Of a DNA stretch of 64,000 bases, positions 8 through 49,749 are shown in pieces (the stretch's first letter is position 1; the number at the start of each line of letters is the position of its first letter). The stretch spans positions 43,725 to 107,724 of IMG/VR virus record IMGVR_UViG_3300036803_000075; one strand, written 5' to 3'. Origin of the DNA: a virus. Its lineage: Duplodnaviria; Caudoviricetes. A program made the translations under genes and the position numbers. The notes under the pieces were generated by a model. That model ran no database searches, was not told the origin of the DNA, and saw nothing but the letters and a program-made list of their open reading frames with translations.

Positions 8-1654
8 TTGAGGTTCGCTGGGAATTGGCCGTTGGCCAGCAGCCCATCGCAGCCTGAGGACTGGCCCGAGGGGGCGATTTATCATTCGCGCCTCGGGCTG
101 TTCGCATTTCAAAACGAAGGTGTAGCCCAGGCGTATCTGCGCCGGCAGGCCATGGTGATTTTCGACCAGGGCCTAGGAAAAACTCACATCGCCATGAGAC
201 TAGCCGCCCTCCTGCGGGAGGATGACGAGCTGTCCACCTGCATGGTGGTCTGCGAACGCAACACTCTGCGGCAGTGGCGAGACTTCTTCGGCCAGTTCAC
301 CAGGCTGGACCCGCTGATCATCCATGGGCCCAAACGCCAGGAGCGACTGGCCAGGTACGTCGCCAGCCAAGGTCGGCTACCGGACGTGCTTATCAGTACG
401 TACGAGACTCTCCGACTCGACACCACGGTCGCCACTGTCGGCAAGAGCAAACGGACCTCGCGTACGGACGGCTGGCTGCTGGAACGACTACTCCCGGCGG
501 CCGGCAAGATGCTCCTGGTCTACGACGAAGTTTCCAAGCTTAAGAACCGAAACTCCGCCACCTACAAGGCTCACGAGCGCACGCTGGTCAGGCTACGGCG
601 GGCGAACAAAGACCTGCGGGTACTGGGGCTGACCGCGACCCCGATCTCCAAGGACCGGGATGACGCCTTCAACGAGTACCGGCTGGTCTGCCCCGGCTCC
701 ATGCCGCCCATCGGGCATTACCAGACCTACTTCCACAAGGGCTACGACCGGTACGGCCGGCCGCGCTGGCATTCCTTCCGACTGGACGAGTTCGACGCTC
801 TGTGTACGCCCTGGACGATCCGCAAGCGCAAGTCCGATGACGATGTACGGGACCAGTTCCCTGAGCTGGTAGAGCAGAGCTGGCAGATCGAGATGAAGGA
901 CGACCAGAAGCGGCTGTACGAGCTTGTGGAGGACTTGGGGCTCAAGCCGGACAGTTGGCCTGCCGACCGGCCCTGGGAGCCTCCTGGTGGTCTCTGGACG
1001 GTACTACGGCAGGTCGTGGCCCATCCGGCCTCGCTGACACTCTCCGATGGCATCATCTCCCGGCTGATCGTCGAGGAGCTGGGCGCCGACTACCTGCGGA
1101 GCATCTCCTCCACCAAGACCGAGGCCCTGGTGGAGTACCTACGGCCCATCGTGCTCGGCCAGGGCGCCAAGGCGGTGGTCTTTTCCTTCTTCGGACAGTC
1201 GGTTCTGCCCCTGTTGGCCGAGGCGCTGCGCACGGCCAGGATGCTGGTCTTCACCTACCACGGCGGCATGACCGACACAGAGCGTAACCAGGCCATCGCG
1301 GCATTCCGCTCTTCAGCTGAGCCGTGCGTCTTCCTCTCATCCGACGCCGGAGCCAGGGGGATCAACCTCCCCGAGGGCGAGTACGTGATCGAGTACGAGT
1401 CGGCCGGCACCCATGAGATTCGGGAGCAGCGGATCAACCGCTGTAGCCGGATCGACGGCACCAAGAAGCTGCTCACCGCCATGACGTTCGTGGTGGACGG
1501 GACGGTCGAGGTGCCCATCATCAAGAAGATGATCGAGCGCAACCAGGCCCATGACAGTGTCCGGGGAGACCAGGACGCCGAGGGTACGTTCATGTCTGCC
1601 GAAGAGCGGGCCGAGGTACTCAGACTTTCCTTGATGAGTAGGAGAAAAAGATGA
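8..1654 (+). CDS. SNF2-family (SF2) helicase/ATPase; true start may lie upstream of the window
   Basis: Walker A-like DQGLGKT, DExx (YDEVS), motif III LTATP, and C-terminal motifs SDAGARGINL and QRINRCSR. Confidence 0.85.
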   Translation: MRFAGNWPLASSPSQPEDWPEGAIYHSRLGLFAFQNEGVAQAYLRRQAMVIFDQGLGKTHIAMRLAALLREDDELSTCMVVCERNTLRQWRDFFGQFTRLDPLIIHGPKRQERLARYVASQGRLPDVLISTYETLRLDTTVATVGKSKRTSRTDGWLLERLLPAAGKMLLVYDEVSKLKNRNSATYKAHERTLVRLRRANKDLRVLGLTATPISKDRDDAFNEYRLVCPGSMPPIGHYQTYFHKGYDRYGRPRWHSFRLDEFDALCTPWTIRKRKSDDDVRDQFPELVEQSWQIEMKDDQKRLYELVEDLGLKPDSWPADRPWEPPGGLWTVLRQVVAHPASLTLSDGIISRLIVEELGADYLRSISSTKTEALVEYLRPIVLGQGAKAVVFSFFGQSVLPLLAEALRTARMLVFTYHGGMTDTERNQAIAAFRSSAEPCVFLSSDAGARGINLPEGEYVIEYESAGTHEIREQRINRCSRIDGTKKLLTAMTFVVDGTVEVPIIKKMIERNQAHDSVRGDQDAEGTFMSAEERAEVLRLSLMSRRKR

Positions 1655-1921: not shown

Positions 1922-3280
1922 ATGGCCGACGTGAGCCACTCTTACGATCAAACTCCGGTAGCCGAGATCGAGCAGGTTACCCGCATGTTCCACAAGGGTG
2001 CGACCATTCGCGTCTTCGTCATAGGCGGAAAGTACTGGTACGCGGCCGTCGACATCGGCAAGGTGCTAGGCATCGGGCGTAACGGGCCAGAAGTCCGAAG
2101 GTACCTGGAGACCGGCTTCATGACCGTCAACCTGACCGGGTTCGCCGAGGCCAACCCGGGTCTGGTGGACCTGGCCCAGACCAAAAACGGTCTGCTGGTC
2201 CTGGTGAACGACCCAGCGGTCGACACCCTCACCCGCTACGGCATGCAAATGGGCCGGTGTGTGGAGAAAGAGGGCTGGTACATGATGGCGAAAGAGGAGC
2301 CTCAACAGCAGGTCATCCAGACCGCAGCCAAGCCGTTGTCGCAGACGCCGGTCACCGAACTCATCGAGCAGGAGGAGACCACAGAAGAGATCCTCAAAGC
2401 TTTCGAACAAGCAGAGAAGGTACACGTGACCATCAGGCCAAAACCGAGACCGCCAAGGAAGGACACCCGCATGCCCAACAGCCCCATCAGCATCCGTCCG
2501 GAGAGGATTAGCCCGGACCAGGCCCGTCGATACCTGGCGGCCAACACCAGCAACCGCAACATCCGCCGTGAGCTGGTCAAGGTTTATGCCCGCGATATGG
2601 CCGAAGGCCGTTGGAAGGACAACGGCGAGACGATCAAGTTCTCCAAGGACGGCGTCCTGATAGACGGCCAGCACCGGCTGGAGGCCGTCGTCCAGGCCAA
2701 CGTGACCATCTCCATGGTGGTGGTGCGAGGGCTCAACGCCGACGTACAGGCCACCATCGACGCCGGAGCCAAGCGGACCGCAGGCGACGCTCTCAAGCTG
2801 CGCGGTGAGATGTACGGGCGCACCCTCGCTGCCGTCGCCCGACGCTGCCTGATCTGGGAGGCCAGCGACCGCAAGGACATGGACCCGTCCCATCGGTCGG
2901 TTTCCCACCAGGAGGTCATCGATTACGTGGCCGCCCACCCCGACCTGCAGAACGCCACCGACTTCGCCCAGCACATCACCGGAAGCCGGCCGGCTCCGTT
3001 GTCGGTCATGGGCTTCAGCTACTGGGCGCTCGCACAGATCTCCCAGGATGATGCCGACCTGTTCTTCGAGGGCCTGACCACAGGCGTTAACCTGACGCCG
3101 GGCAATCCCGTACTGGCGCTGCGGAATCGGCTGCTGGATGTCCGCTACCGCAGGTACTCAGCTCAGGATGACCGAGAGAAGGTCGCGCTGATCTTCAAGG
3201 GCTGGAACTTCTTCCGGGCCGGTCGCCCTGTCCAGATCCTGAAGTTCATGAAGTCCGAGTCCTTCCCCATCCCGAAGTAA
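1922..3280 (+). CDS. Bro-N-like domain plus DGQHR/ParB-like domain protein
   Basis: N-terminal IRVFVIGGKYWYAAVDIGKVLG resembles Bro-N. NRNIR...LIDGQHRLEAV is the DGQHR motif. A possible internal start lies at 2471 after AAGGAAGGA. Confidence 0.6.
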   Translation: MADVSHSYDQTPVAEIEQVTRMFHKGATIRVFVIGGKYWYAAVDIGKVLGIGRNGPEVRRYLETGFMTVNLTGFAEANPGLVDLAQTKNGLLVLVNDPAVDTLTRYGMQMGRCVEKEGWYMMAKEEPQQQVIQTAAKPLSQTPVTELIEQEETTEEILKAFEQAEKVHVTIRPKPRPPRKDTRMPNSPISIRPERISPDQARRYLAANTSNRNIRRELVKVYARDMAEGRWKDNGETIKFSKDGVLIDGQHRLEAVVQANVTISMVVVRGLNADVQATIDAGAKRTAGDALKLRGEMYGRTLAAVARRCLIWEASDRKDMDPSHRSVSHQEVIDYVAAHPDLQNATDFAQHITGSRPAPLSVMGFSYWALAQISQDDADLFFEGLTTGVNLTPGNPVLALRNRLLDVRYRRYSAQDDREKVALIFKGWNFFRAGRPVQILKFMKSESFPIPK

Positions 3281-3326: not shown

Positions 3327-3962
3327 ATGCAGATCACTCGTAAGAAGGTGGCCATCGCGGTCACTGCGGCCGTCATTGCCGCCATCGGAATCCTGGCCGG
3401 CTGTACCAGCCTGCCGTCAGCCCAGCAGGCCGCCGTCAACCGGTCCCAGACCCGGGCGAACTACGTCCCCAAGAACGACGTGGAGGGGCGCAACTACAAC
3501 GCCCGCCAGCGTCTGGCCGACGACCCCACCGCGATCGTCTGGTGCTCGGTCTACCCGAACAACCAGACGGTCAAGCCCTACACCGTCCCGATCGCCGGCA
3601 AGCTCACCTCGGGCAACAAGCGGCCCTACCCGACGAGCCAGTTCAGCAATGGGACCAACGACAACACCAATAGCCCCGAGCTGCCCGGCACCGACGGCTT
3701 CTACGGCAGCTCCAGTGACTACTCCTACGGCTTCGACCCGGCCGGTGTTTACTGGGAGTTCCACAACGCCGATTTCACCTGTACGTCCTCGCCGACCTTG
3801 ATCCAGAAGAACAGCACCACCTTCTCGGTCACCACCGCACCGGACCAGCTCACGTCAGCGGACCTCCGCGCCGAGGCGGCCCTCAAGGCCTGCCGGGCGA
3901 CCAACCCGGACCCGTCCGCTCCGTGCCCGGCCGCCGCACAGATTCTGGGGATCAAGCCGTGA
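3327..3962 (+). CDS. Putative lipoprotein
   Basis: Basic N-terminus, hydrophobic stretch and LAGC lipobox; AGGAAGG RBS. Confidence 0.75.
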   Translation: MQITRKKVAIAVTAAVIAAIGILAGCTSLPSAQQAAVNRSQTRANYVPKNDVEGRNYNARQRLADDPTAIVWCSVYPNNQTVKPYTVPIAGKLTSGNKRPYPTSQFSNGTNDNTNSPELPGTDGFYGSSSDYSYGFDPAGVYWEFHNADFTCTSSPTLIQKNSTTFSVTTAPDQLTSADLRAEAALKACRATNPDPSAPCPAAAQILGIKP

Positions 3963-4375
3963 GTACTGCCAAAGCGATCTTCACCGCGATTGTCAGTCTG
4001 CTGGGCATAGCACTCATCCTGGTCGTGTTCGGTTTCTTCGCCGGCTGGTTCCGGGCTGGAGTCGAGGTCATCAGCCCTGAGAACGTCAAGGCTCAGTACC
4101 AGTTCGGCTACAGCTACGACCGTGGCATGGTCGCGCTGGCCGGCACCTGGTGTTCGGCGAAGCAGGCTGAAACGACCGAGACGAACCCCGATTACAAGGC
4201 CCAGCGGGCCAGCCAGACACTGGCGTACGGCAATCAGTACAGGTCCGTCGAGGCTCAGTACGACGCGGCGATGGCCAACGCCTTCCAGGCAAAGCACGTC
4301 AAGCCCGCAGATCTGCCGCTGGTCGCTCCGACGTTGCCCGAGAGGGTGGCGAGCTTGGGGCTGACCTGCGGATAG
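3959..4375 (+). CDS. Membrane-anchored hypothetical protein
   Basis: GTGA overlap with the upstream stop; N-terminal TM segment AIFTAIVSLLGIALILVVFGFFAGWF. Confidence 0.7.
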   Translation: MSTAKAIFTAIVSLLGIALILVVFGFFAGWFRAGVEVISPENVKAQYQFGYSYDRGMVALAGTWCSAKQAETTETNPDYKAQRASQTLAYGNQYRSVEAQYDAAMANAFQAKHVKPADLPLVAPTLPERVASLGLTCG

Positions 4376-4382
4376 TAAGACC

Positions 4383-4456
4383 GGGACGGTAGCTCAGTCG
4401 GTTAGAGCGGCGCTCTGATAAGGCGCAGGCCGGAGGTTCGATTCCTCCTCGTCCCA
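4383..4456 (+). tRNA. tRNA-Ile(GAT), CCA not encoded
   Basis: Full cloverleaf: acceptor GGGACGG/TCGTCCC, D arm GCTC/GAGC, anticodon stem GCGCT/GGCGC with loop CTGATAA (GAT at 4417-4419), T arm GGAGG-TTCGATT-CCTCC, discriminator A4456. Confidence 0.92.
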
Positions 4457-4954
4457 CGGCTACTCAGGTAGCTCGTGGCGCGGTTGGGCATGGCACGGCC
4501 AGGCGAGGCACGGCCTGGTTTGGCGCGGCGGGGCATGGCTTGGGATTTACCAGGACGACCGGCAGTCTCTGGGGTTCGAGACCTCAGCGTCCACGCCCAC
4601 TTTGGTGGGTCATGGTGCGGTCGGGCGTGGCATGGCGTGGCACGGCGTGATGCGGCAAGGCTTGGGATCTACGGGGTGACTGGCAGCCATCAGGGTTCGA
4701 GGCCCTGACATCCACGCTCGCTTTGGGCGGGTCAGGGCATGGCCGGACGCGGTTCGGCACGGTGGGGTGCGGCATGGCGTGGTGCGGCATGGCTAGGCCT
4801 GGCGTGGGATCTACAGCGGCAGTGGCACACGTCCTGGTTCGAGTCCAGGAGCCGCACGCACGGCTCGGCTGGGTCAGGTGTGGCAGGGCGACGTGTGGCA
4901 TGGCTGGGAATATACAGCGGCAGATGCGTCCTGGTTCGAATCCGGGAGTCTGCA
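4457..4954 (+). ncRNA. Array A: four GGY-NN pentamer tracts separated by mini tRNA-like elements (putative guide RNA array)
   Basis: Tracts at 4477-4541 (13 pentamers), 4614-4663 (10), 4736-4805 (14) and 4862-4906 (9). Mini-tRNA elements at 4553-4593, 4674-4714, 4816-4856 and 4920-4954. The structure is seen directly; RNA function is inferred. Confidence 0.8.
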
Positions 4955-4973
4955 CGCACTACGAAGCTGAGTA

Positions 4974-4990
4974 GGTTGGCTAAGCCAACC
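4974..4990 (+). terminator. Hairpin after array A (possible terminator or 3' stabiliser)
   Basis: Perfect inverted repeat GGTTGGC-TAA-GCCAACC; no U-tract. Confidence 0.35.
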
Positions 4991-5084
4991 CCTATCAGCC
5001 TAACCACTACTTGACGCAGAGTCGAAAAGGTGATTCCATTCCTCTCGTCATAACCGCCAGAGATCAGGGAGAGGAACCCCAAAA

Positions 5085-5690
5085 GTGGCGATCAACGATA
5101 TGAAGCTAAAACTGACCGGGACGACCCCGGTGCTGTTTCACAACAGCCAGCTCGTCAACCCGTTCAACCCGATCAACCGGGAGAAGAAGAAGCTCACGGA
5201 CAAGCGCACCAAGCAGACCGACGAGGACCGCATCCAGGTCGCTCGGCTGGAATGGACAGGCGGCTGGTACTGGAACGACGAGCACGGACCCATCCTGCCG
5301 ATGATCAACGTCTACGCGGCGCTGCTGAAGGCGGCCAAGAGCACGCGCAACGGTCCTCTGGTCGACAAGGGCGTCAACTTCTTGCGCCTGACCGAGCCCC
5401 TGCAGTACGACGGCCCCCGTGACCTGGACGGCCTGTGGGGCAACGGCATCGGCGAGGGTGGCGACCACCCCTCTCCGTACGTCGATTACCAGGCCGTCGG
5501 CCAGCAGGCGGTCAAGATCATGCGCTGCCGGCCGAAGCTGAGCGAGTGGGAGCTTGACACCGTCTTCGGAGTGGACGACACGGTCATCGATCCCGAGGCG
5601 TTCCTCGGATTCATGGCCTACGCTGGCAAGTACATCGGTGTTGGGGACTTCCGTGCTATGTACGGTAAGTTCAGCGTCAAGGAGGTCTGA
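5085..5690 (+). CDS. Small RAMP/Cas7-like RNA-binding protein, putative effector of the GGY-NN arrays
   Basis: Beta1 MKLKLTGTTPVLFHN; GPILPMINVYAALLKAA in the position of the RAMP PxIPGSSxKGxxR motif; C-terminal G-rich loop GKYIGVGDFRAMYGKFSV; lies between the two arrays; RBS AGGGAGAGGA. Confidence 0.65.
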   Translation: MAINDMKLKLTGTTPVLFHNSQLVNPFNPINREKKKLTDKRTKQTDEDRIQVARLEWTGGWYWNDEHGPILPMINVYAALLKAAKSTRNGPLVDKGVNFLRLTEPLQYDGPRDLDGLWGNGIGEGGDHPSPYVDYQAVGQQAVKIMRCRPKLSEWELDTVFGVDDTVIDPEAFLGFMAYAGKYIGVGDFRAMYGKFSVKEV

Positions 5691-5691
5691 G

Positions 5692-6246
5692 TTGACTGCT
5701 ATCTTCGACTCCGAAAACCCGCAGTGGCGGCCGATCTACGACGGTCTTAAGAAGGCCGGTCTCGAATTCGATCGTCTTTTCAGCTGGGACACACTGAAAG
5801 CCATCGCAGGATACGACATCCGGCTGAATCGCAGTGCCTTCTACGCGGCAGTAAAGCAGCTGGAAGAGCACGACAAGCGTACGTTGGTCAGTGTGTGGGG
5901 CAAGGGATATCGCGTGGCTCCAGCGCCCGAGCATCATAAGCTCGGGCTCAAGCACCAGCTCAAGGCCAAGCGTGCCGTACGGCGCGGCGCGCGCAAGGTC
6001 AAGGCGGCTGACACGTCTCATCTCACTGCCGAGCAGATCCACGCCAACGAGCAGCTGATCTTCCGACTCCATCGTCACGAAACTCAGCTGATCAACCACG
6101 AGACCCGGATCAGCGCACTGGAGAGGGAGACTGGGAAAACTCGCCGTGAGCTGGACGAGTTGAACAAGCAGTCTGAGCTGGCACGCCGGCTCAAGGCGCT
6201 GGGTATCAATGTCCCCAAGAGTGCCCCTGACACCGTCGAGGGGTAA
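5692..6246 (+). CDS. Array-associated accessory protein (winged-helix-like N-terminus, basic helix, coiled-coil C-terminus)
   Basis: TTG start at 5692 behind an AAGGAGG RBS inside the upstream gene's end. RTLVSVWGKGYRVA resembles a wHTH wing. Heptad-rich LINHETRISALERETGKTRRELDELNK. Confidence 0.65.
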   Translation: MTAIFDSENPQWRPIYDGLKKAGLEFDRLFSWDTLKAIAGYDIRLNRSAFYAAVKQLEEHDKRTLVSVWGKGYRVAPAPEHHKLGLKHQLKAKRAVRRGARKVKAADTSHLTAEQIHANEQLIFRLHRHETQLINHETRISALERETGKTRRELDELNKQSELARRLKALGINVPKSAPDTVEG

Positions 6247-7746
6247 CAGGGCCTGGCCTGGCCGGGTGAGGCGGGACGAGGCTAGGTGAGGCGAGGTTCG
6301 GCAACGTCGGGCCGGGTAGGGCGAGACTGGGCGCGGCGAGGTCAGGCTGGGTTGGACAAGGAAGCACAAAATGGGTGACTGGCAGTCTCCGAGGTTCGAG
6401 GCCTCGGCACCCACGCTCCTTTCGGGAGTCAAGACGGGGCAGGGCGCGGTGAGGTGTGGCCTGGTGGGGTGAGGCTTGGCGTGGTGAGGCTTGGGATTTT
6501 AAAATGGACGACCGGCAGCCACTAGGGTTCAAGGCCCTAGCGTTCACGCTCACTACGGTGAGTTGAGGCCCGGTTTGGTACGGCAAGGCGTGACAGGGCA
6601 TGGCTCGGCCCGGCGAGGTCCGGCGCGGCAGGGCGCGGCATGATTGGGCGCCGTATGCCATGGCAAGGTGAGGCATGGCAAGGAATTACAGAGCGAGCGG
6701 CACACTTCCGGGTTCGAGTCCTGGACGCTCGCGGCCGTCCTCGGGCGGCTCGTGGCAAGCCTAGGTTGGGTTTGGCATGGCAATGTTAGGTAGGGCTCGG
6801 CTTGGTCCGGTGCGGCAAAGCGCGGTTAGGTTTGGCATGGCAACAAACTGGGTGAGCGGCACACTCTTCGGTCCGAGTCCGAAGCACCCACGGCTACTCC
6901 GGTAGCTCGTGGCTTGGTGCGGCGCGGCAGCGCATGGTTGGGCCTGGCATGGCAGGGAATTTACTGAGCGGATGGTCGTACGGGAGGTTCGACTCCTCTT
7001 GCGTTCACGCCCTCTTTGGGGGTCAGGGCACGGCTAGGCTGGGCGCGGTAGGGCTGGGTACGATTCGGTCTGGCGGGGCAAGGCTTGGGATATACCAGTG
7101 CGAATGGCATACCTCTCGGTTCGAGTCTGAGACGCTCACGCTCTCTTCGAGAGTCAGGGCAGGGCGACGCCAGGCATGGTTAAGTTGGGTGCGGCTGGAC
7201 GCGGTGCGGCAAGGTTTGACTTGACGTGGCAAGGCGAGGCAGAGCTGGGTCAGGCAGGGCAGCAACAACACTGTGTCGACGGTCTTCGAGAGGGTTCGAC
7301 TCCCTCTGACACGCGCTCTCTTCGAGAGTCAGGGCGGGGCTAGGCAGGGCAACGTATGGCCCGGCGCGGTAAGGCTTGGCTAGGTTGGGTTGGGTCCGGT
7401 GGAGTGTGGCTAGGTATGGAGTGCCGACGGTCTGCGAGGAGGTTCGACTCCTTCTGGCACACGCTCTCTTCGGAGAGGCGGGGCTAGGTGCGGCGTGGCT
7501 TGGTGGGGCACGGTGCGGTCAGGCCGGGCATGACAAGGATCAAAAATCTGGACGAGCAGCACACTTCTGGGTGCGAGTCCCAGACGCCCACGCTCACTCC
7601 AGTGAGTACGTGGCCAGGCGTGGCATGGTAGGGCACGGTCCGGCTGGGTCGGGCGCGGTAGGGCTAGGCACTGGGCATGGTTTGGTACGCCTAGGTGAGA
7701 TGTGGCATGGCTTGGTATGGCAGGGATCTGTTAAAATCCCTGCCAT
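6247..7746 (+). ncRNA. Array B: ten GGY-NN pentamer tracts separated by nine mini tRNA-like elements
   Basis: Tracts: 6250-6359 (22), 6433-6492 (12), 6567-6681 (23), 6754-6843 (18), 6911-6955 (9), 7027-7086 (12), 7158-7262 (21), 7333-7417 (17), 7477-7536 (12), 7612-7723 (22). Mini-tRNAs: 6373-6413, 6506-6546, 6691-6731, 6850-6890, 6966-7007, 7098-7138, 7273-7313, 7421-7461, 7550-7590. Ends in an 11-bp hairpin at 7717-7746. Confidence 0.8.
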
Positions 7747-8095
7747 GAGCACCTGAAGAGATCGAAAGCCAGCGCTGTCCGTCACCAAGGACGATTGTGA
7801 ATGGCAGTATTTTCGAGCCGGCGGCCCTGGCGGTCAGCATCAAAACAAGACCTCGTCCGGGGCTCGGGTGATCCACCATCCGTCCGGCGCCCGTGGCGAG
7901 TCCCGGGAGGAGCGCAGTCAGCTCCAAAACCGTAAGGCTGCCTGGCGCCGGATGGTGGCCGATCCGAAGTTCAAGATCTGGATCAACACCCAGCTTTATG
8001 GTCTCGAGCTGGCGGAATCCAAGGTCGCCAGGGACATGGCGGAGAAGAACATCCGGGTCGAAGTCAAGAAAGACGGGAAATGGATATGCCAGTAG
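7745..8095 (+). CDS. GGQ peptide-chain-release-factor-like (RF-1 domain/ArfB-like) protein with an in-frame TGA at codon 4
   Basis: The frame reads MST*RDRKPALSVTKDDCEWQYFRAGGPGGQHQNKTSSGARVIHHPSG...ERSQLQNRKAA. GGQ is at 7829-7837. The ORF track (7868 start) misses the GGQ. Confidence 0.75.
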
Positions 8096-8283: not shown

Positions 8284-8636
8284 TCTCCGTTCTCCCGCTC
8301 CTTGCGCTGTTCCAGCTCCTGGTCGCTCTCGTCCTCGGCCGTCATCAGGTCGTCGCCGTCGTCCACACCCAGTCGGCGGAGGATCTCGTCGAGCTTGAGA
8401 TTGAGAGCGAGATTGTCCCGGTTCTGGGTGTTCTGAATGATGAACACCATCAAAAAAGTGATGATCGTCGTGCTGGTGTTGATCACCAACTGCCAGGTGT
8501 CTGAGAAGCCCAACAGCGGCCCGCTGGCGCCCCATACGAGCAGAGCGCCCAGCGCGGCCACAAACACCCAGCCCCGGCCGAGAATGGCCGAGATCTTGCT
8601 GGTGAACCTGGTGAAGACCCCACCCTTTTTACTCAT
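8280..8636 (-). CDS. Low-affinity iron permease family (Fet4-like domain) membrane protein
   Basis: Characteristic WGASGPLLGFSDTWQLVINTSTTIITFLMVFIIQNTQNRD..ALNLKLDEI; ATG at 8636 overlaps the upstream TGA. Confidence 0.8.
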   Translation of the reverse strand: MSKKGGVFTRFTSKISAILGRGWVFVAALGALLVWGASGPLLGFSDTWQLVINTSTTIITFLMVFIIQNTQNRDNLALNLKLDEILRRLGVDDGDDLMTAEDESDQELEQRKERENGD

Positions 8637-10711
8637 GCTGTCGGAGTCACCCAAGTAGTTCCATTCCACACCTTAACGGGCGCCTGTACCCATGAGGTTC
8701 CATTCCAAATCTTTACTGGCGCATGCACCCAAGTAGTTCCATTCCACACCTTCATCGCGCCGCCGGAGGGGGCCGTGTACGTCTTCGTCAGCGTGATGTG
8801 GCTGGCACCCGAGGAGTCATAGCCGGTGCCCGTGACGGTGATCTGCTGGCCATTATCGACAACATCGAACCAGCCATATTGCTGGCTGTAGACCGAGCTG
8901 CTCTGGGGCACCGGGTAGATCCCAGCGGAGTACGTACCGTTGCCGGCATAGGTTGTCTGGTCCAGCGGTGAGGCACAGAAGATCTGCAGACCGCTCGGGG
9001 AGTGGGTCCCGTCATCCGCCGCCAGCACATGCAGGTCACCATGGATCATCATCACCCGGACACCGTTGGCGTTGATGAAGTTGCCGATCTCCGTACGCTC
9101 GGTGTTGTAAGCCGACCAGGTGTCGTCGCCGACGTACGTGGTGCCGTTGTTCCACGCGTCCTCATGGAACCAGATCTTGACCGGCTCGGGCTGCAGCAGC
9201 TGAGCCTTCAGCCAGTCCTTCTGGGTGCTCCCGAGCTTGGTCTTGCTGGAGTTGTCCGTCTGGGCGATCGGACTCATGTACGACCGGCCGTCGGTGCAGA
9301 TATAGCGCACCCGGCCGGCCACGAAGGTGAAGTACGTTCCCGCGTTGTCCGCCGCCGGCAGCGTATAGCTCGGCACCCGGTTCCGGTAGACGGACTGGGC
9401 AGCCGCGTGGGCGACCGCAGTACCGTCGTTGTTCGAGCCGCCGCCGGAGTCGTGGTCAGACCAGATGTAACTGATGCTGGTGCTGGAGAAGAGCGACTGC
9501 TGCCGCTGGCAGCTCATCACCTCGTCCCACGCCCGGTTGAACAACGTCGTGTCATTGGCCACGATGTCTCGGTAGTTCAGGTCTCCCAGGTGCTGGAAGA
9601 ACAACGCCGTCCGAGATCCCGCCCCCACCGAGCCGGTGCGTGTGCGGATCTGGTCGAAGTTGATGTCATTACTGAAGGTCTTGGCACATGAGGCAGCAGC
9701 GAAGGAATAGCTAGCGGGGCTGCCTGCTACCGGGAACGTCCGCACCGTACCGACAGACTGGGTGTCGATCGTTCCGTCCAGCTCCAGACCGTAGTAGTAC
9801 GTGGTGTTCGCAGTCAGCCCTGAAATAGCGAACTTAGCCAATCCATTGGCGTCAGGCGTGGCCGCGCTGGAAAAGACTGGGCTCGTCAGCAGATCGCTAG
9901 TGGTAGAGACCTTCACCCTCGCGGACGCCGTGTTAACCGTTCGAGAGGAGACATTGAATCCAGTAGCGGTCGCTCCACCGGCCCAACGGGAAAGGCAGGT
10001 CTGGTACATCGCTGGGTATCCGACATCGGAAAATCCCGCATTCGCTGCGTAATAAGCGATAGCGGCAGTGGCGTTAACCGTCCCTACCACGCCGCAGTAC
10101 ATAGCCGTGCCGGTGTTGAATGTAGCCGTGCTGGTGATGGTCTGGGCAGGTGAGCCAAAGGCTGCAGTCGGGAAGGATCGAACCTCCAGCTGCCCGACCG
10201 TGGCAGAGAAAGTCACCTTCCATTCAATGCGACCCCAGGTATTCGCCGTCAAGGCACCCGTGGTGGTCGTGGCGGCAGACGCTCCTGTCGAATCCCGAGC
10301 TGAGATCAGACCACTAGAAAGCACTCGCAGAGTAGCCATGATAGCGCCCGAAGTATTCAAGATCGCCATGACGGCTTGGGAGCTGCCTGGAAGCGAGGGA
10401 AAGTTAACGTCGATCCAGCCATAAATGGTGGTCGCGCTCGTCTGGAACATCCCCGCTGGACTAGCGGCGCCAGTGTTCCACCGGGTATACGCCTGGGCGT
10501 CGGTGGCATTCGCTACTACGTGAAGGGTATTGACTCCGGTCGACCGTACGACCGTATTGCTGTAGGCCAATGCTGCCGTACCACCGATCGTGGGCAAGAA
10601 GTCAAAGGCCCATCCAGGCCCACCACCAGAGTTGCCGGCAGTGGTAGGCATGTTAGGCACCACCAGCGCCGCACCATTGGGGCCATTCAGGCTATTGAAA
10701 ACTCGCGTCAT
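8633..10711 (-). CDS. PhoD-like metallophosphoesterase fused to virion-type domains
   Basis: Motifs AASCA, HLGDLNY, WSDHD, TDGRSY, LGSTQKDWL and IHGDLH; FN3-like segment GLTANTTYYY; C-terminal triple KxWNGxxW repeat. Confidence 0.75.
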   Translation of the reverse strand: MTRVFNSLNGPNGAALVVPNMPTTAGNSGGGPGWAFDFLPTIGGTAALAYSNTVVRSTGVNTLHVVANATDAQAYTRWNTGAASPAGMFQTSATTIYGWIDVNFPSLPGSSQAVMAILNTSGAIMATLRVLSSGLISARDSTGASAATTTTGALTANTWGRIEWKVTFSATVGQLEVRSFPTAAFGSPAQTITSTATFNTGTAMYCGVVGTVNATAAIAYYAANAGFSDVGYPAMYQTCLSRWAGGATATGFNVSSRTVNTASARVKVSTTSDLLTSPVFSSAATPDANGLAKFAISGLTANTTYYYGLELDGTIDTQSVGTVRTFPVAGSPASYSFAAASCAKTFSNDINFDQIRTRTGSVGAGSRTALFFQHLGDLNYRDIVANDTTLFNRAWDEVMSCQRQQSLFSSTSISYIWSDHDSGGGSNNDGTAVAHAAAQSVYRNRVPSYTLPAADNAGTYFTFVAGRVRYICTDGRSYMSPIAQTDNSSKTKLGSTQKDWLKAQLLQPEPVKIWFHEDAWNNGTTYVGDDTWSAYNTERTEIGNFINANGVRVMMIHGDLHVLAADDGTHSPSGLQIFCASPLDQTTYAGNGTYSAGIYPVPQSSSVYSQQYGWFDVVDNGQQITVTGTGYDSSGASHITLTKTYTAPSGGAMKVWNGTTWVHAPVKIWNGTSWVQAPVKVWNGTTWVTPTA

Positions 10712-49448: not shown

Positions 49449-49513
49449 CGCACGGCGTGGTTGGGCCAGGTGTGGCGCGGCTGGGTGCGGCGGGGCACGG
49501 CACGGCTAGGTAA
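49449..49513 (+). ncRNA. Orphan GGY-NN tract (12 pentamers)
   Basis: CGCAC then GGCGT GGTTG GGCCA GGTGT GGCGC GGCTG GGTGC GGCGG GGCAC GGCAC GGCTA GGTAA; intergenic; same strand and grammar as arrays A and B. Confidence 0.7.
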
Positions 49514-49520
49514 AACACGC

Positions 49521-49553
49521 AACAGCCCCGGAGAGCGAATCTCCGGGGCTGTT
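49521..49553. terminator. Bidirectional terminator-like hairpin
   Basis: AACAGCCCCGGAGA-GCGAA-TCTCCGGGGCTGTT between convergent genes. Confidence 0.7.
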
Positions 49554-49749
49554 GGCTATCTGGAGCTACTTGCCGTCTCGCTTGGTGTTCTGGACGCCTG
49601 TGTTCGGCCTGGGCCTGCCTCCGGTGCCCTGACGCTGCGGCAGTACCGGCGGATCGTGCTTGGGCTGATAGTTAGCCGGCCGCTTGGGATTGACCTGACC
49701 TGACGAGTCAGAGTGCTTGGCCACGGGGAAGAATCCTCCTAGGAAACGG

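What the first reader, a model, noticed from the sequence alone, without database searches (positions are those of the whole stretch)
5085..5690. Stand-alone 201-aa RAMP/Cas7-like protein
The order of motifs matches a minimal RAMP core: first strand with a T-P turn (LKLTGTTPVLFHN), PILPMINVYAALLKAA helix, thumb-like hairpin (YVDYQAVGQQAVKIMRCRP), and terminal Gly-rich loop (GVGDFRAMYGKF). No other cas genes are in the window. It could be a minimal or ancestral-like effector, or an anti-CRISPR decoy. The assignment rests on motif recognition only.
Basis: inference. Interest (0 to 1): 0.82.

Follow-up and report, generated by a model that had tools for sequence, protein, structure and literature searches.

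The report
Phage Vipr protein of VIPR system
The 201-aa gene encodes Vipr, the CRISPR-like RNA-binding protein of a phage VIPR system described in 2026 preprints; it has an accessory gene beside it and about 15 guide-RNA genes in the same genome, so it is a new, well-equipped example of a known kind.

Summary
The ORF at 5085-5690 (+) is real and encodes a Vipr protein, the minimal RAMP of VIPR systems (bioRxiv 10.64898/2026.04.26.720920). It matches the solved SUSP1 Vipr (PDB 36pp) at E 2e-17. Its AlphaFold model (pLDDT 93) matches Csm3, Cmr4 and Cas7 chains. The five residues that read the GGY bases in SUSP1 are conserved.

It is not stand-alone. A translationally coupled vap1-family winged-helix gene follows at 5692-6246. 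Sixteen GGYNN tracts, forming 4 guide units upstream and 10 downstream, flank the gene pair on the same strand (159 motif hits against 0.67 expected). A solo tract lies at 49454.

The host genome is a 108-kb actinophage-like myovirus contig with no Cas1 and no CRISPR-type RAMP profile hit.

Two features go beyond the VIPR papers I could read. First, the guide tails are tRNA-like minihelices, shared with 9 related loci, and a real tRNA-Ile heads the array. Second, one guide matches 23 of 24 informative bases, with skip bases on wobble positions, in a PD-(D/E)xK-like gene of four actinobacterial genomes, in defence-island or mobile contexts.

Verdict: a new member of a known kind. This scan has met VIPR loci before on other DNA, and separate notes already cover this genome's array and tRNA-like elements.

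The parts
4383..4457 (+). tRNA-Ile (GAT). It sits at the head of the upstream guide array, in the position that tRNA-like modules occupy further down.
   Evidence: ARAGORN. Rfam tRNA 71 bits, E 1e-14. Its 3' trailer (CGGCTAC-TCAG-GTAGC-TCGT) is nearly identical to the trailer after tail 8.
4477..4972 (+). Upstream vrRNA array: 4 units (U1-U4). Each is a GGYNN tract (13, 10-12, 14-16 and 9 repeats) followed by a tRNA-like tail.
   Evidence: Tail model hits at 4543-4613, 4664-4735, 4806-4877 and 4907-4972.
5085..5690 (+). vipr: the 201-aa Vipr protein (minimal RAMP). GGY-reading residues are H19, R149, D188, F189 and R190.
   Evidence: PDB 36pp SUSP1 Vipr, E 2e-17 with the single sequence and 2e-86 with the profile. 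phrog_4652. Model pLDDT 93.1. RAMP fold matches. Residue conservation.
5692..6246 (+). vap (vap1 family): 184-aa accessory protein with an N-terminal winged helix plus a long helical hairpin. TTG start, with AAGGAGG at 5679-5685 inside the end of vipr.
   Evidence: Sequence. The partner gene is found next to vipr in 40 of 84 loci. A profile built without them hits the Felixounavirus and Medea1 partners at E 1.7e-15 and 5e-20. Model pLDDT 92.1. Winged-helix matches at probability 0.9-0.98.
6250..7746 (+). Downstream vrRNA array: 10 units (D1-D10) with 9 tRNA-like tails. The last unit ends in an 11-bp hairpin (7717-7746) instead of a tail.
   Evidence: Hairpin z -2.6.
7612..7671 (+). Guide D10a (12 perfect GGYNN repeats), the only guide with a credible natural target.
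   Evidence: 23 of 24 informative bases matched in four Actinomycetota contigs. Skip bases fall on codon position 3.
49454..49554 (+). Solo vrRNA-like tract: 12 perfect GGYNN repeats followed by a 15-bp hairpin, with no tRNA-like tail. It lies 42 kb from vipr.
   Evidence: Hairpin z -5.9.

Best explanation
The gene encodes Vipr, the single RNA-binding effector of a type II-like VIPR (Viral Interference Programmable Repeat) system carried by a roughly 108-kb myovirus of an actinobacterial host.

How it most likely works:
1. Inferred: the flanking arrays are transcribed on the vipr strand and cut into guide RNAs (vrRNAs).
2. Inferred by homology with the SUSP1 cryo-EM structures: Vipr protomers polymerise along each vrRNA, one per GGYNN unit. 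H19 and D188 hold G1. R149 and F189 hold G2. R190 of the neighbouring protomer holds the pyrimidine. The two variable bases of each unit are left exposed.
3. Inferred by homology: the filament reads double-stranded DNA by the published one-base-skip code (NNxNNx...), forms a gapped R-loop and blocks transcription. No nuclease is encoded. The winged-helix Vap1-like partner assists.

Shown here: the intact gene, its homology and fold, the conserved contact residues, the cognate repeats, the partner gene, the absence of self-targets, and one natural target match.

Specific to this clade, and inferred: the guides are separated by tRNA-like acceptor/T-arm minihelices headed by a real tRNA-Ile. Host tRNA-processing enzymes (RNase P, RNase Z) therefore probably mature the array.

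The confidence of 0.93 is for 'this is a functional Vipr of a VIPR system'. The tRNA-enzyme processing step alone I put at about 0.5.
For: Homology to the experimentally characterised SUSP1 Vipr: PDB 36pp, phmmer E 2.1e-17 over residues 6-199, and profile E 2.3e-86.

Fold: AF2 pLDDT 93.1, pTM 0.86. The top Foldseek hits are all CRISPR RAMPs at probability 1.00 (type VII Cas7 8z4l_F, Csm3 9ash_F and 6ifl_F, Cmr4 6s6b_I). VIA-align without Foldseek gives Csm3 9g9a_G Z 10.2, 6ae2_B 9.6, Cmr4 6s6b_I 9.5 and gRAMP 8d9g_B 9.2.

Contact residues: those named in the cryo-EM paper (SUSP1 H17, R138, D177, W178, R179) align to H19, R149, D188, F189 and R190. H19, R149, D188 and R190 are invariant in 24 of 24 close homologues, and position 189 is always F or Y.

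Repeats: (GGYNN)4GGY with up to 1 mismatch gives 159 hits against 0.67 expected, all on the + strand and flanking the gene pair. My caller found 17 tracts on the + strand and none on the - strand. The same association holds in most of 84 related loci.

Partner gene: vap1-family with a winged-helix model.

Viral context: tail sheath, baseplate and virion proteins. The nearest tail sheaths are from Mycobacterium, Gordonia and Rhodococcus myoviruses.

Targets: no self-target above shuffled guides, as the paper reports for its systems. Guide D10a matches 23 of 24 bases in four Actinomycetota genomes; the four targets differ from one another only at skip positions and at the final mismatched base, and the skip bases fall on codon position 3. 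The backwards-pattern control gave 0 hits in 305 genomes.

tRNA-like tails: 13 copies in the window; 8 of 11 predicted pairs keep pairing through changes on both sides; covariation score 0.617 against 0.200 in shuffles, 0 of 500 shuffles as high. A further 21 copies occur in 9 related loci, with 97.8% of cells paired.
Against: No experiment exists on this protein. RNP assembly, DNA binding and silencing are inferred from relatives at 28% identity.

Only one of about 15 guides has a plausible target. That match is statistically a single evolutionary event, and about one chance hit was expected for the 20-base seed.

Type II placement rests on the accessory gene and locus layout, not on the authors' Vipr phylogeny.

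The tail differs from the SUSP1 pseudoknot, so details of filament capping may differ.

Single tails do not fold better than shuffles (z -0.1 to -0.5).

The broader covariation count was made on a model-fitted alignment.

No promoter or terminator signals above chance were found.

The contig is only about 73% complete.
Confidence: 0.93

Rival explanations
1. Anti-defence use. The system is a normal VIPR, but at least part of its guide repertoire is aimed at host chromosomal defence-island genes rather than at rival phages or satellites. The phage would switch off a host nuclease gene by RNA-guided silencing. This is a variant of the main explanation and differs only in the target class.
For: The D10a target is a roughly 385-aa PD-(D/E)xK-like protein (HWADGD...LLDVKT core). 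PADLOC gives RTasPDDEXK at E 3e-4. The atlas's nearest named cluster is a PD-(D/E)XK nuclease at 0.87. In a Mycobacteriales MAG the gene lies head-to-head with DISARM DrmD (1344 bits) and DrmMI. In another MAG it lies next to an IrrE/HTH RmrA-like gene and a Tn3-family transposase. In Pseudonocardia sp. KRD291 it lies next to a Mutator transposase. It is sporadic: 1 close and 1 distant match in 301 genomes of the order.
Against: The function of the target gene is unknown. It adjoins DISARM in only 1 of 4 genomes. Transposase neighbours fit a mobile element equally well, which would be the published target class. Silencing a pre-made defence protein after infection would come late. Only one guide supports the idea, and four other guides did not hit these genomes.
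Confidence: 0.2
2. The tRNA-like modules are not processing signals. They are the retained 3' cap of each vrRNA, the functional equivalent of the SUSP1 pseudoknot, nucleating or terminating the Vipr filament. Guides would be released by another route.
For: In SUSP1 a structured 3' tail stays on the mature vrRNA and caps the filament. The module always follows the tract after a conserved GGGAT(T/C)TAC linker. The last unit and the solo tract end in plain hairpins instead, as if any stable 3' structure would do.
Against: A genuine tRNA-Ile occupies the module's position at the head of the array, with the same ACG-plus-hairpin trailer. This is hard to explain by capping. The module keeps the features that RNase P and RNase Z read: an acceptor-like stem stacked on a T-arm with a TTCGAnn loop, and an unpaired A after the stem.
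Confidence: 0.35
3. Anti-CRISPR decoy. A RAMP mimic that soaks up host crRNAs or poisons host Cascade or Csm complexes.
For: The protein has a RAMP fold close to Csm3 and Cmr4, and the gene is phage-borne.
Against: The residues conserved across the family are those that read GGY. The phage itself supplies about 15 cognate GGYNN RNAs on the same strand. A solved homologue acts with exactly such RNAs. No CRISPR-repeat-like sequence is nearby.
Confidence: 0.02

Closest known systems
Vipr of Escherichia phage SUSP1 (type II VIPR; PDB 36pp; bioRxiv 10.64898/2026.04.26.720920, 10.64898/2026.04.26.720927 and 10.64898/2026.10.15.759431)
   Same: Homologous over the full length (E 2e-17). Same size (201 against 202 aa). 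Same RAMP elements and GGY-contact residues. Followed by a vap1-family winged-helix gene. vrRNA genes lie both upstream and downstream on the same strand. Phage-borne, with no nuclease.
   Different: Only about 28% identity. W178 is F here. There are 14 guide units plus a solo tract, against 4 in SUSP1. Several tracts are long (17-21 repeats) or phase-shifted doubles. The tail is a tRNA-like acceptor/T-arm minihelix plus a small hairpin, not the roughly 40-nt pseudoknot. A real tRNA-Ile heads the array. The host is actinobacterial and high-GC.
Unannotated homologues in Gordonia phage Trine (gp41-gp40) and Mycobacterium phage prophiBWHA-1 (gp43-gp42)
   Same: The closest named relatives (36-39% identity). 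Same vipr-vap pair. GGYNN tracts and tRNA-like tails are detected by the window's tail model.
   Different: They have 1-2 tracts only. They are siphovirus-type or prophage genomes of 44-56 kb. Both genes are annotated as hypothetical proteins. In Trine the vap annotation runs over the guide region.
CRISPR backbone RAMPs: Csm3 (type III-A), Cmr4 (III-B), Cas7 of types I, IV and VII
   Same: Shared fold: RRM core, thumb hairpin and glycine-rich loop (Z 8-10). Both polymerise along a guide RNA with a thumb that interrupts pairing periodically (from the papers).
   Different: No sequence-profile membership. No cas partners and no CRISPR array. The guide is itself the repeat, with 5-nt periodicity and 2 read bases per unit. 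The target is read with one skipped base per two. No catalytic Asp for RNA cleavage is implied.
Synthetic polycistronic tRNA-gRNA arrays
   Same: Guides alternate with tRNA(-like) units, so the cell's RNase P and RNase Z could release each guide.
   Different: This array is natural. The units are truncated minihelices without D and anticodon arms. Processing is not shown.

Membership tests
Vipr / VIPR system | Sequence homology to an experimentally characterised Vipr protein | tested here: met
   PDB 36pp SUSP1 Vipr: phmmer E 2.1e-17 over residues 6-199; family profile E 2.3e-86.
Vipr / VIPR system | Minimal RAMP fold: single RRM core, thumb hairpin, glycine-rich loop | tested here: met
   AF2 pLDDT 93.1. 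Hairpin at 133-152 and loop at 185-195. Csm3, Cmr4 and Cas7 are the top hits by two independent aligners.
Vipr / VIPR system | Residues that read G1, G2 and Y3 (SUSP1 H17, D177, R138, W178, R179) | tested here: met
   H19, D188, R149, F189 and R190. Four are invariant and one is always aromatic in 24 homologues.
Vipr / VIPR system | vrRNA genes: tandem GGYNN (YNNGG) repeats in the intergenic DNA flanking vipr, on its strand | tested here: met
   159 motif hits against 0.67 expected. Of 17 tracts, 16 flank the gene pair; all are on the + strand.
Vipr / VIPR system | Conserved structured 3' tail after each repeat tract | tested here: met
   13 tails share a covarying two-helix module. The structure differs from the SUSP1 pseudoknot.
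Vipr / VIPR system | Adjacent vap accessory gene (type II: vap1, a predicted DNA binder) | tested here: met
   5692-6246, translationally coupled. A profile built without them hits the Felixounavirus partner at 1.7e-15 and the Medea1 partner at 5e-20. Winged-helix model.
Vipr / VIPR system | Natural targets that obey the one-base-skip code, with skip bases on wobble positions | tested here: inconclusive
   One guide (D10a) matches 23 of 24 bases in four Actinomycetota genomes, with skip bases on codon position 3. No targets were found for the others.
Vipr / VIPR system | Vipr-vrRNA ribonucleoprotein that binds dsDNA and represses transcription | not testable with these tools
   Needs pull-down, small-RNA sequencing and a reporter assay.
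VIPR type II | Placement in the type II clade of the authors' Vipr phylogeny | not tested
   No typed reference set was available and no supplementary files are held. The assignment rests on vap1 homology and locus layout.
CRISPR-Cas Cas7/Csm3/Cmr4 (RAMP superfamily, CRISPR-associated) | Match to a CRISPR RAMP sequence profile | tested here: not met
   No Pfam-A hit at E <= 0.01. PF03787 (RAMPs) has no match in the contig, and the control genomes rang.
CRISPR-Cas Cas7/Csm3/Cmr4 (RAMP superfamily, CRISPR-associated) | Association with cas genes and a CRISPR array | tested here: not met
   No Cas1 in the contig. The neighbouring genes are an SNF2 helicase, hypothetical proteins and vap. The repeats are GGYNN tracts, not repeat-spacer units.
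tRNA-like element (acceptor/T-arm minihelix) | Acceptor-like stem stacked on a 5-6 bp stem with a 7-nt T-loop (TTCRAnn), followed by an unpaired discriminator-like base | tested here: met
   Alignment and consensus fold. Pairs kept through compensatory changes. One copy scores weakly as tRNA-Sec in Rfam (26 bits, E 0.034, below the gathering score).
tRNA-like element (acceptor/T-arm minihelix) | Cleavage by RNase P or RNase Z | not testable with these tools
   Needs end-mapping of RNAs or in vitro cleavage.

The most novel reading that the evidence does not exclude
In this actinophage clade, VIPR guide arrays are natural tRNA-guide polycistrons matured by host RNase P and RNase Z. At least one guide is aimed not at a rival phage but at a PD-(D/E)xK nuclease-like gene in host defence islands. 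VIPR would then also serve as a programmable, RNA-guided anti-defence device.
Probability: 0.15. Interest if true: 0.75.

Novelty: new member of a known kind. Interest (0 to 1): 0.4.

Why it matters
The protein itself is already explained. It adds a distant actinophage member (about 28% identity to SUSP1 Vipr) to a family described only months ago, and it confirms that the GGY-reading residues are the conserved core of the family.

The locus is still useful in three ways:
- It has one of the larger guide repertoires seen (14 units plus a solo tract).
- It shows a tail type, the tRNA-like minihelix with a real tRNA at the head of the array, that none of the three VIPR papers I searched mentions. 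This suggests how guides are matured without a dedicated nuclease.
- It gives one concrete, testable natural target in Pseudonocardia and Mycobacteriales genomes. That target also points to the likely host range of an uncultivated phage.

If the target proves to be a defence gene, the known roles of VIPR would widen from inter-phage conflict to counter-defence.

Tried and rejected
- Pfam, NCBIfam and PADLOC gave no family for Vipr. Only PHROGs (unknown function) and the PDB sequence search named it.
- Megablast of 20 kb of the window against known phages found nothing.
IMG/VR loci were used instead.
- Target hunt: nothing above shuffled guides in the phage's own genome or in 84 VIPR loci. The 18-base seeds of guides U1, D6 and D9 gave 0 hits in IMG/VR. 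Guides U1, D6, D9 and S1 gave 0 hits at up to 3 mismatches in the four genomes that carry the D10a target.
- The single metagenome hit of guide U1 (L089, 21 of 26) was rejected as chance. The 3' extension matches 1 of 6 positions, the skip bases fall on codon position 1 of the covering 1393-codon frame, and the contig has 52% GC.
- The idea that the solo guide S1 spells rival alleles of its upstream neighbour gene could not be tested, because that gene has no relatives in IMG/VR. Its self-match of 16 of 24 is at chance level.
- BLAST and the word-indexed search found no vap relatives. Iterative HMMER on the fetched loci did.
- The sigma-70 promoter and terminator scan was uninformative.
- Single-sequence folding of the tails is not better than shuffles.
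- No supplementary tables of the VIPR paper are held, so no type could be taken by proxy.
- My first choice of ORF in L085 was in the wrong frame. It was corrected by tblastn and frame analysis.

Full report
OBSERVATION

The ORF is real. GTG 5085 to the stop at 5688-5690 gives 201 codons on the + strand, preceded by a purine-rich ribosome-binding stretch. It is a conserved gene. It hits phrog_4652 (unknown function) at E 5e-42. Full-length relatives occur in 128 deposited phage genomes, all annotated as hypothetical: Felixounaviruses, Mycobacterium and Gordonia phages, and Pseudomonas phage Medea1. There are 23 metagenomic homologues at 33-69% identity and 139 relatives in IMG/VR. Pfam, NCBIfam and PADLOC have no model for it.

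WHAT IT IS

A sequence search of the PDB gave one strong match: chain 36pp_D, 'SUSP1 Vipr protein' (E 2.1e-17 with the window protein alone, 2.3e-86 with a five-member profile). Three 2026 preprints describe this family.

- 10.64898/2026.04.26.720920 defines VIPR systems (Viral Interference Programmable Repeat). A VIPR system has a minimal RAMP protein (Vipr), a vipr-accessory gene (vap), and vrRNAs made of 9-16 GGY/NN pentamers followed by a structured 3' tail. It recognises dsDNA through a code in which each NN pair is read and one target base is skipped.
- 10.64898/2026.04.26.720927 gives cryo-EM structures and names the residues that hold the GGY bases.
- 10.64898/2026.10.15.759431 shows that SUSP1 needs vipr and vap1 to overcome a satellite.

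I tested each defining feature.

Fold. The AlphaFold model built on 24 homologues is confident (pLDDT 93.1, pTM 0.86). Foldseek's significant hits are all CRISPR RAMPs: type VII Cas7, Csm3, Cmr4 and Cas6, at probability 1.00. That library ends before the Vipr entries were released, so this is an independent test. A Foldseek-free search of 48,161 chains puts Csm3, Cmr4, gRAMP and type IV, VII and I-D Cas7 on top (Z 8-10.2).

Contact residues. SUSP1 H17, R138, D177, W178 and R179 align to H19, R149, D188, F189 and R190. Four are invariant in all 24 close homologues, and position 189 is always F or Y (it is Y in the P. fulva Vipr).

Guide RNAs. (GGYNN)4GGY with at most one mismatch occurs 159 times against 0.67 expected, on the + strand only. 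A tract caller finds 17 tracts: four at 4477-4906, twelve at 6250-7723 and one at 49454-49513. The reverse strand has none, and there are no more in the other 44 kb of the contig. Grouped by their tails, these form 4 upstream and 10 downstream units. Four ORFs listed inside them (4475-4708, 4739-5014, 6934-7224, 7376-7756) are artefacts of the repeats. GGYNN tracts on the vipr strand occur in most of the 84 related loci fetched.

Accessory gene. In four unrelated annotated phages the homologue is followed at once by a small gene, and these genes align. In the window the true start is TTG 5692, one base after the vipr stop, with AAGGAGG at 5679-5685. This gives a 184-aa protein that is translationally coupled to vipr. 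Iterative HMMER over the ORFs of the loci finds this family beside vipr in 40 of 84 loci. A profile built only from first-round hits, without the Felixounavirus and Medea1 partners, still finds them at E 1.7e-15 and 5e-20. The model (pLDDT 92.1) has a winged-helix N-terminal domain, with the conserved GxGYRV forming the wing, followed by a long helical hairpin. Foldseek aligns the first ~70 residues to winged-helix DNA-binding domains at probability 0.9-0.98, though with weak E-values. This fits the 'WH-like' Vap proteins of type II systems.

Context. The 'genome' is one 107,724-bp viral contig, about 73% complete by CheckV. It encodes tail sheath, baseplate wedge and virion proteins. The tail sheath is closest, at about 30-33% identity, to myoviruses of Mycobacterium, Gordonia and Rhodococcus. 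Neither Cas1 nor the Pfam RAMP profile matches anywhere in it.

The gene is therefore a Vipr and the locus is a complete VIPR system, most like type II. It is not a member of a CRISPR Cas7, Csm3 or Cmr4 family by sequence or by context, although it shares their fold.

WHAT IS PARTICULAR HERE

(a) Tails. After each tract come a GGGAT(T/C)TAC linker, a module of a 5-bp stem, an 11-nt linker (conserved CGGCA), a 6-bp stem closing a 7-nt TTCGAnn loop, the return strand, an unpaired A, CG, and then a small hairpin. This is the top half of a tRNA: an acceptor-like stem stacked on a T-arm.

- RNAalifold recovers both helices, and 8 of 11 pairs keep pairing through double changes.
- On the MAFFT alignment 86% of cells pair. 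The covariation score is 0.617 against 0.200 in shuffles (0 of 500 as high) and 0.08-0.20 when partners are slid.
- A covariance model finds all 13 window copies and 21 more in nine related loci, including Gordonia phage Trine and the M. abscessus prophage. It finds none in the Felixounavirus or Medea1 loci. Over the 34 copies 97.8% of cells pair (this alignment was fitted to the model).
- A genuine tRNA-Ile (4383-4457) stands where such a module would stand before tract 1. It has almost the same trailer as tail 8.

None of the three VIPR papers contains the word tRNA. They describe pseudoknot tails, staggered arrays and hammerhead-interspersed arrays. Against over-reading: single tails do not fold better than shuffled sequence, and no RNA ends are known. 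Notes of this scan had already flagged these modules on this genome, and a follow-up had reached the same view on another genome.

(b) Targets. No guide matches the phage's own genome or the 84 VIPR loci above shuffled-guide level. Three 18-base seeds found nothing in IMG/VR.

The 20-base seed of guide D10a (7612-7671) hit four contigs in the species-representative genome collection, where about one chance hit is expected. All four are Actinomycetota: Pseudonocardia kunmingensis, Pseudonocardia sp. KRD291, a Mycobacteriales MAG and an Actinomycetota MAG. The full guide matches 23 of 24 informative bases in each. The four targets differ from one another only at skip positions and at the final mismatched base. 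In every locus the skip bases fall on codon position 3 of the same homologous frame. This is the signature the discovery paper reports for coding targets. The backwards-pattern control gave nothing in 305 genomes.

The targeted gene encodes a roughly 385-aa actinobacterial protein without a family. It has a HWADGD...LLDVKT core that reads as a PD-(D/E)xK nuclease motif. Weak support comes from PADLOC (RTasPDDEXK, E 3e-4) and from the protein atlas. Its neighbours are a DISARM DrmD-DrmMI pair in one genome, an IrrE/HTH gene and a Tn3-family transposase in another, and a Mutator transposase in a third. The gene is rare in the order.

I rate this as a probable true target. The four hits are homologous, so they count as one event. 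The target points to a Pseudonocardiaceae or Mycobacteriales host. Whether the gene belongs to a defence island or to a mobile competitor is open. The one metagenome hit of guide U1 is chance-like.

MECHANISM

Shown here:
- an intact gene
- homology to SUSP1 Vipr and a RAMP fold
- conserved GGY-reading residues
- about 15 cognate repeat RNA genes on the same strand
- a coupled winged-helix partner gene
- no self-targets
- one target that obeys the published code

Inferred from the SUSP1 and P. fulva work: one protomer binds per pentamer. G1 is held by H19 and D188, G2 by R149 and F189, and the pyrimidine by R190 of the next protomer. The NN bases are presented to dsDNA, a gapped R-loop forms, and transcription is blocked without cleavage, helped by Vap.

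Inferred from anatomy only: the array is matured by host tRNA-processing enzymes.

VERDICT

However, the gene is neither stand-alone nor a decoy, and the system has been in the literature since April 2026. This scan has also reported VIPR loci several times on other DNA. It is a new member of a known kind. Two side observations are worth a bench test: the tRNA-like guide tails and a chromosomal actinobacterial target.

Noticed in passing
L002:6582-6860 (Gordonia phage Trine, MH271318.1): The annotated 267-aa 'hypothetical protein' gp40 overlaps two GGYNN tracts and three tRNA-like tail hits. Its N-terminal third is probably guide-RNA DNA called as protein. The real vap would start later. Trine gp41 and gp40 are an unannotated vipr-vap pair.
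   Followed up: partly
window 4475-4708, 4739-5014, 6934-7224, 7376-7756: ORFs of 77-126 codons on the + strand lie wholly inside GGYNN arrays. They are open only because the G-rich repeats lack stops, and gene callers may annotate them as proteins.
   Followed up: yes
L020-L026 (IMG/VR contigs, GC about 0.49-0.50): Seven near-identical loci carry vipr plus a vap1-family gene, but my caller finds no GGYNN tract within 4 kb. They may use one of the alternative repeat consensus forms that the paper mentions (NNNGG, YNNNG), or they may keep their guides elsewhere.
   Followed up: no
L086:2104-3222(-) and homologues in L085, L087, L088: A family of roughly 385-aa actinobacterial proteins has no Pfam, NCBIfam or PHROG model. 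It has a PD-(D/E)xK-like HWADGD...LLDVKT core. It lies beside DISARM (DrmD, DrmMI) in one MAG and beside transposases in two other genomes, so it is a candidate defence or mobile-element gene.
   Followed up: partly
window 8-1654 and 1922-3280: Just upstream of the VIPR locus lie an SNF2-family helicase (548 aa) and a 452-aa protein (phrog_5931). The latter has weak N-terminal anti-repressor (Ant) and central ParB-like matches. Two unannotated ORFs (3327-3962, 3923-4375) separate them from the tRNA-Ile.
   Followed up: no
window 6250-6354, 6557-6681, 6754-6843, 7158-7262, 7333-7417, 7612-7723: Several units are much longer than the 10-12 repeats of SUSP1 guides (17-21 repeats). Others consist of two tracts out of phase by 2 or 10 nt (D3a/b, D7a/b, D10a/b). 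It is not clear whether each gives one long guide or two.
   Followed up: no
window 8633-10711 (-): A 692-aa protein matches phage hydrolase and phosphodiesterase families (phrog_13624 at E 1e-106). It is the first gene of the minus-strand structural block after the VIPR locus.
   Followed up: no
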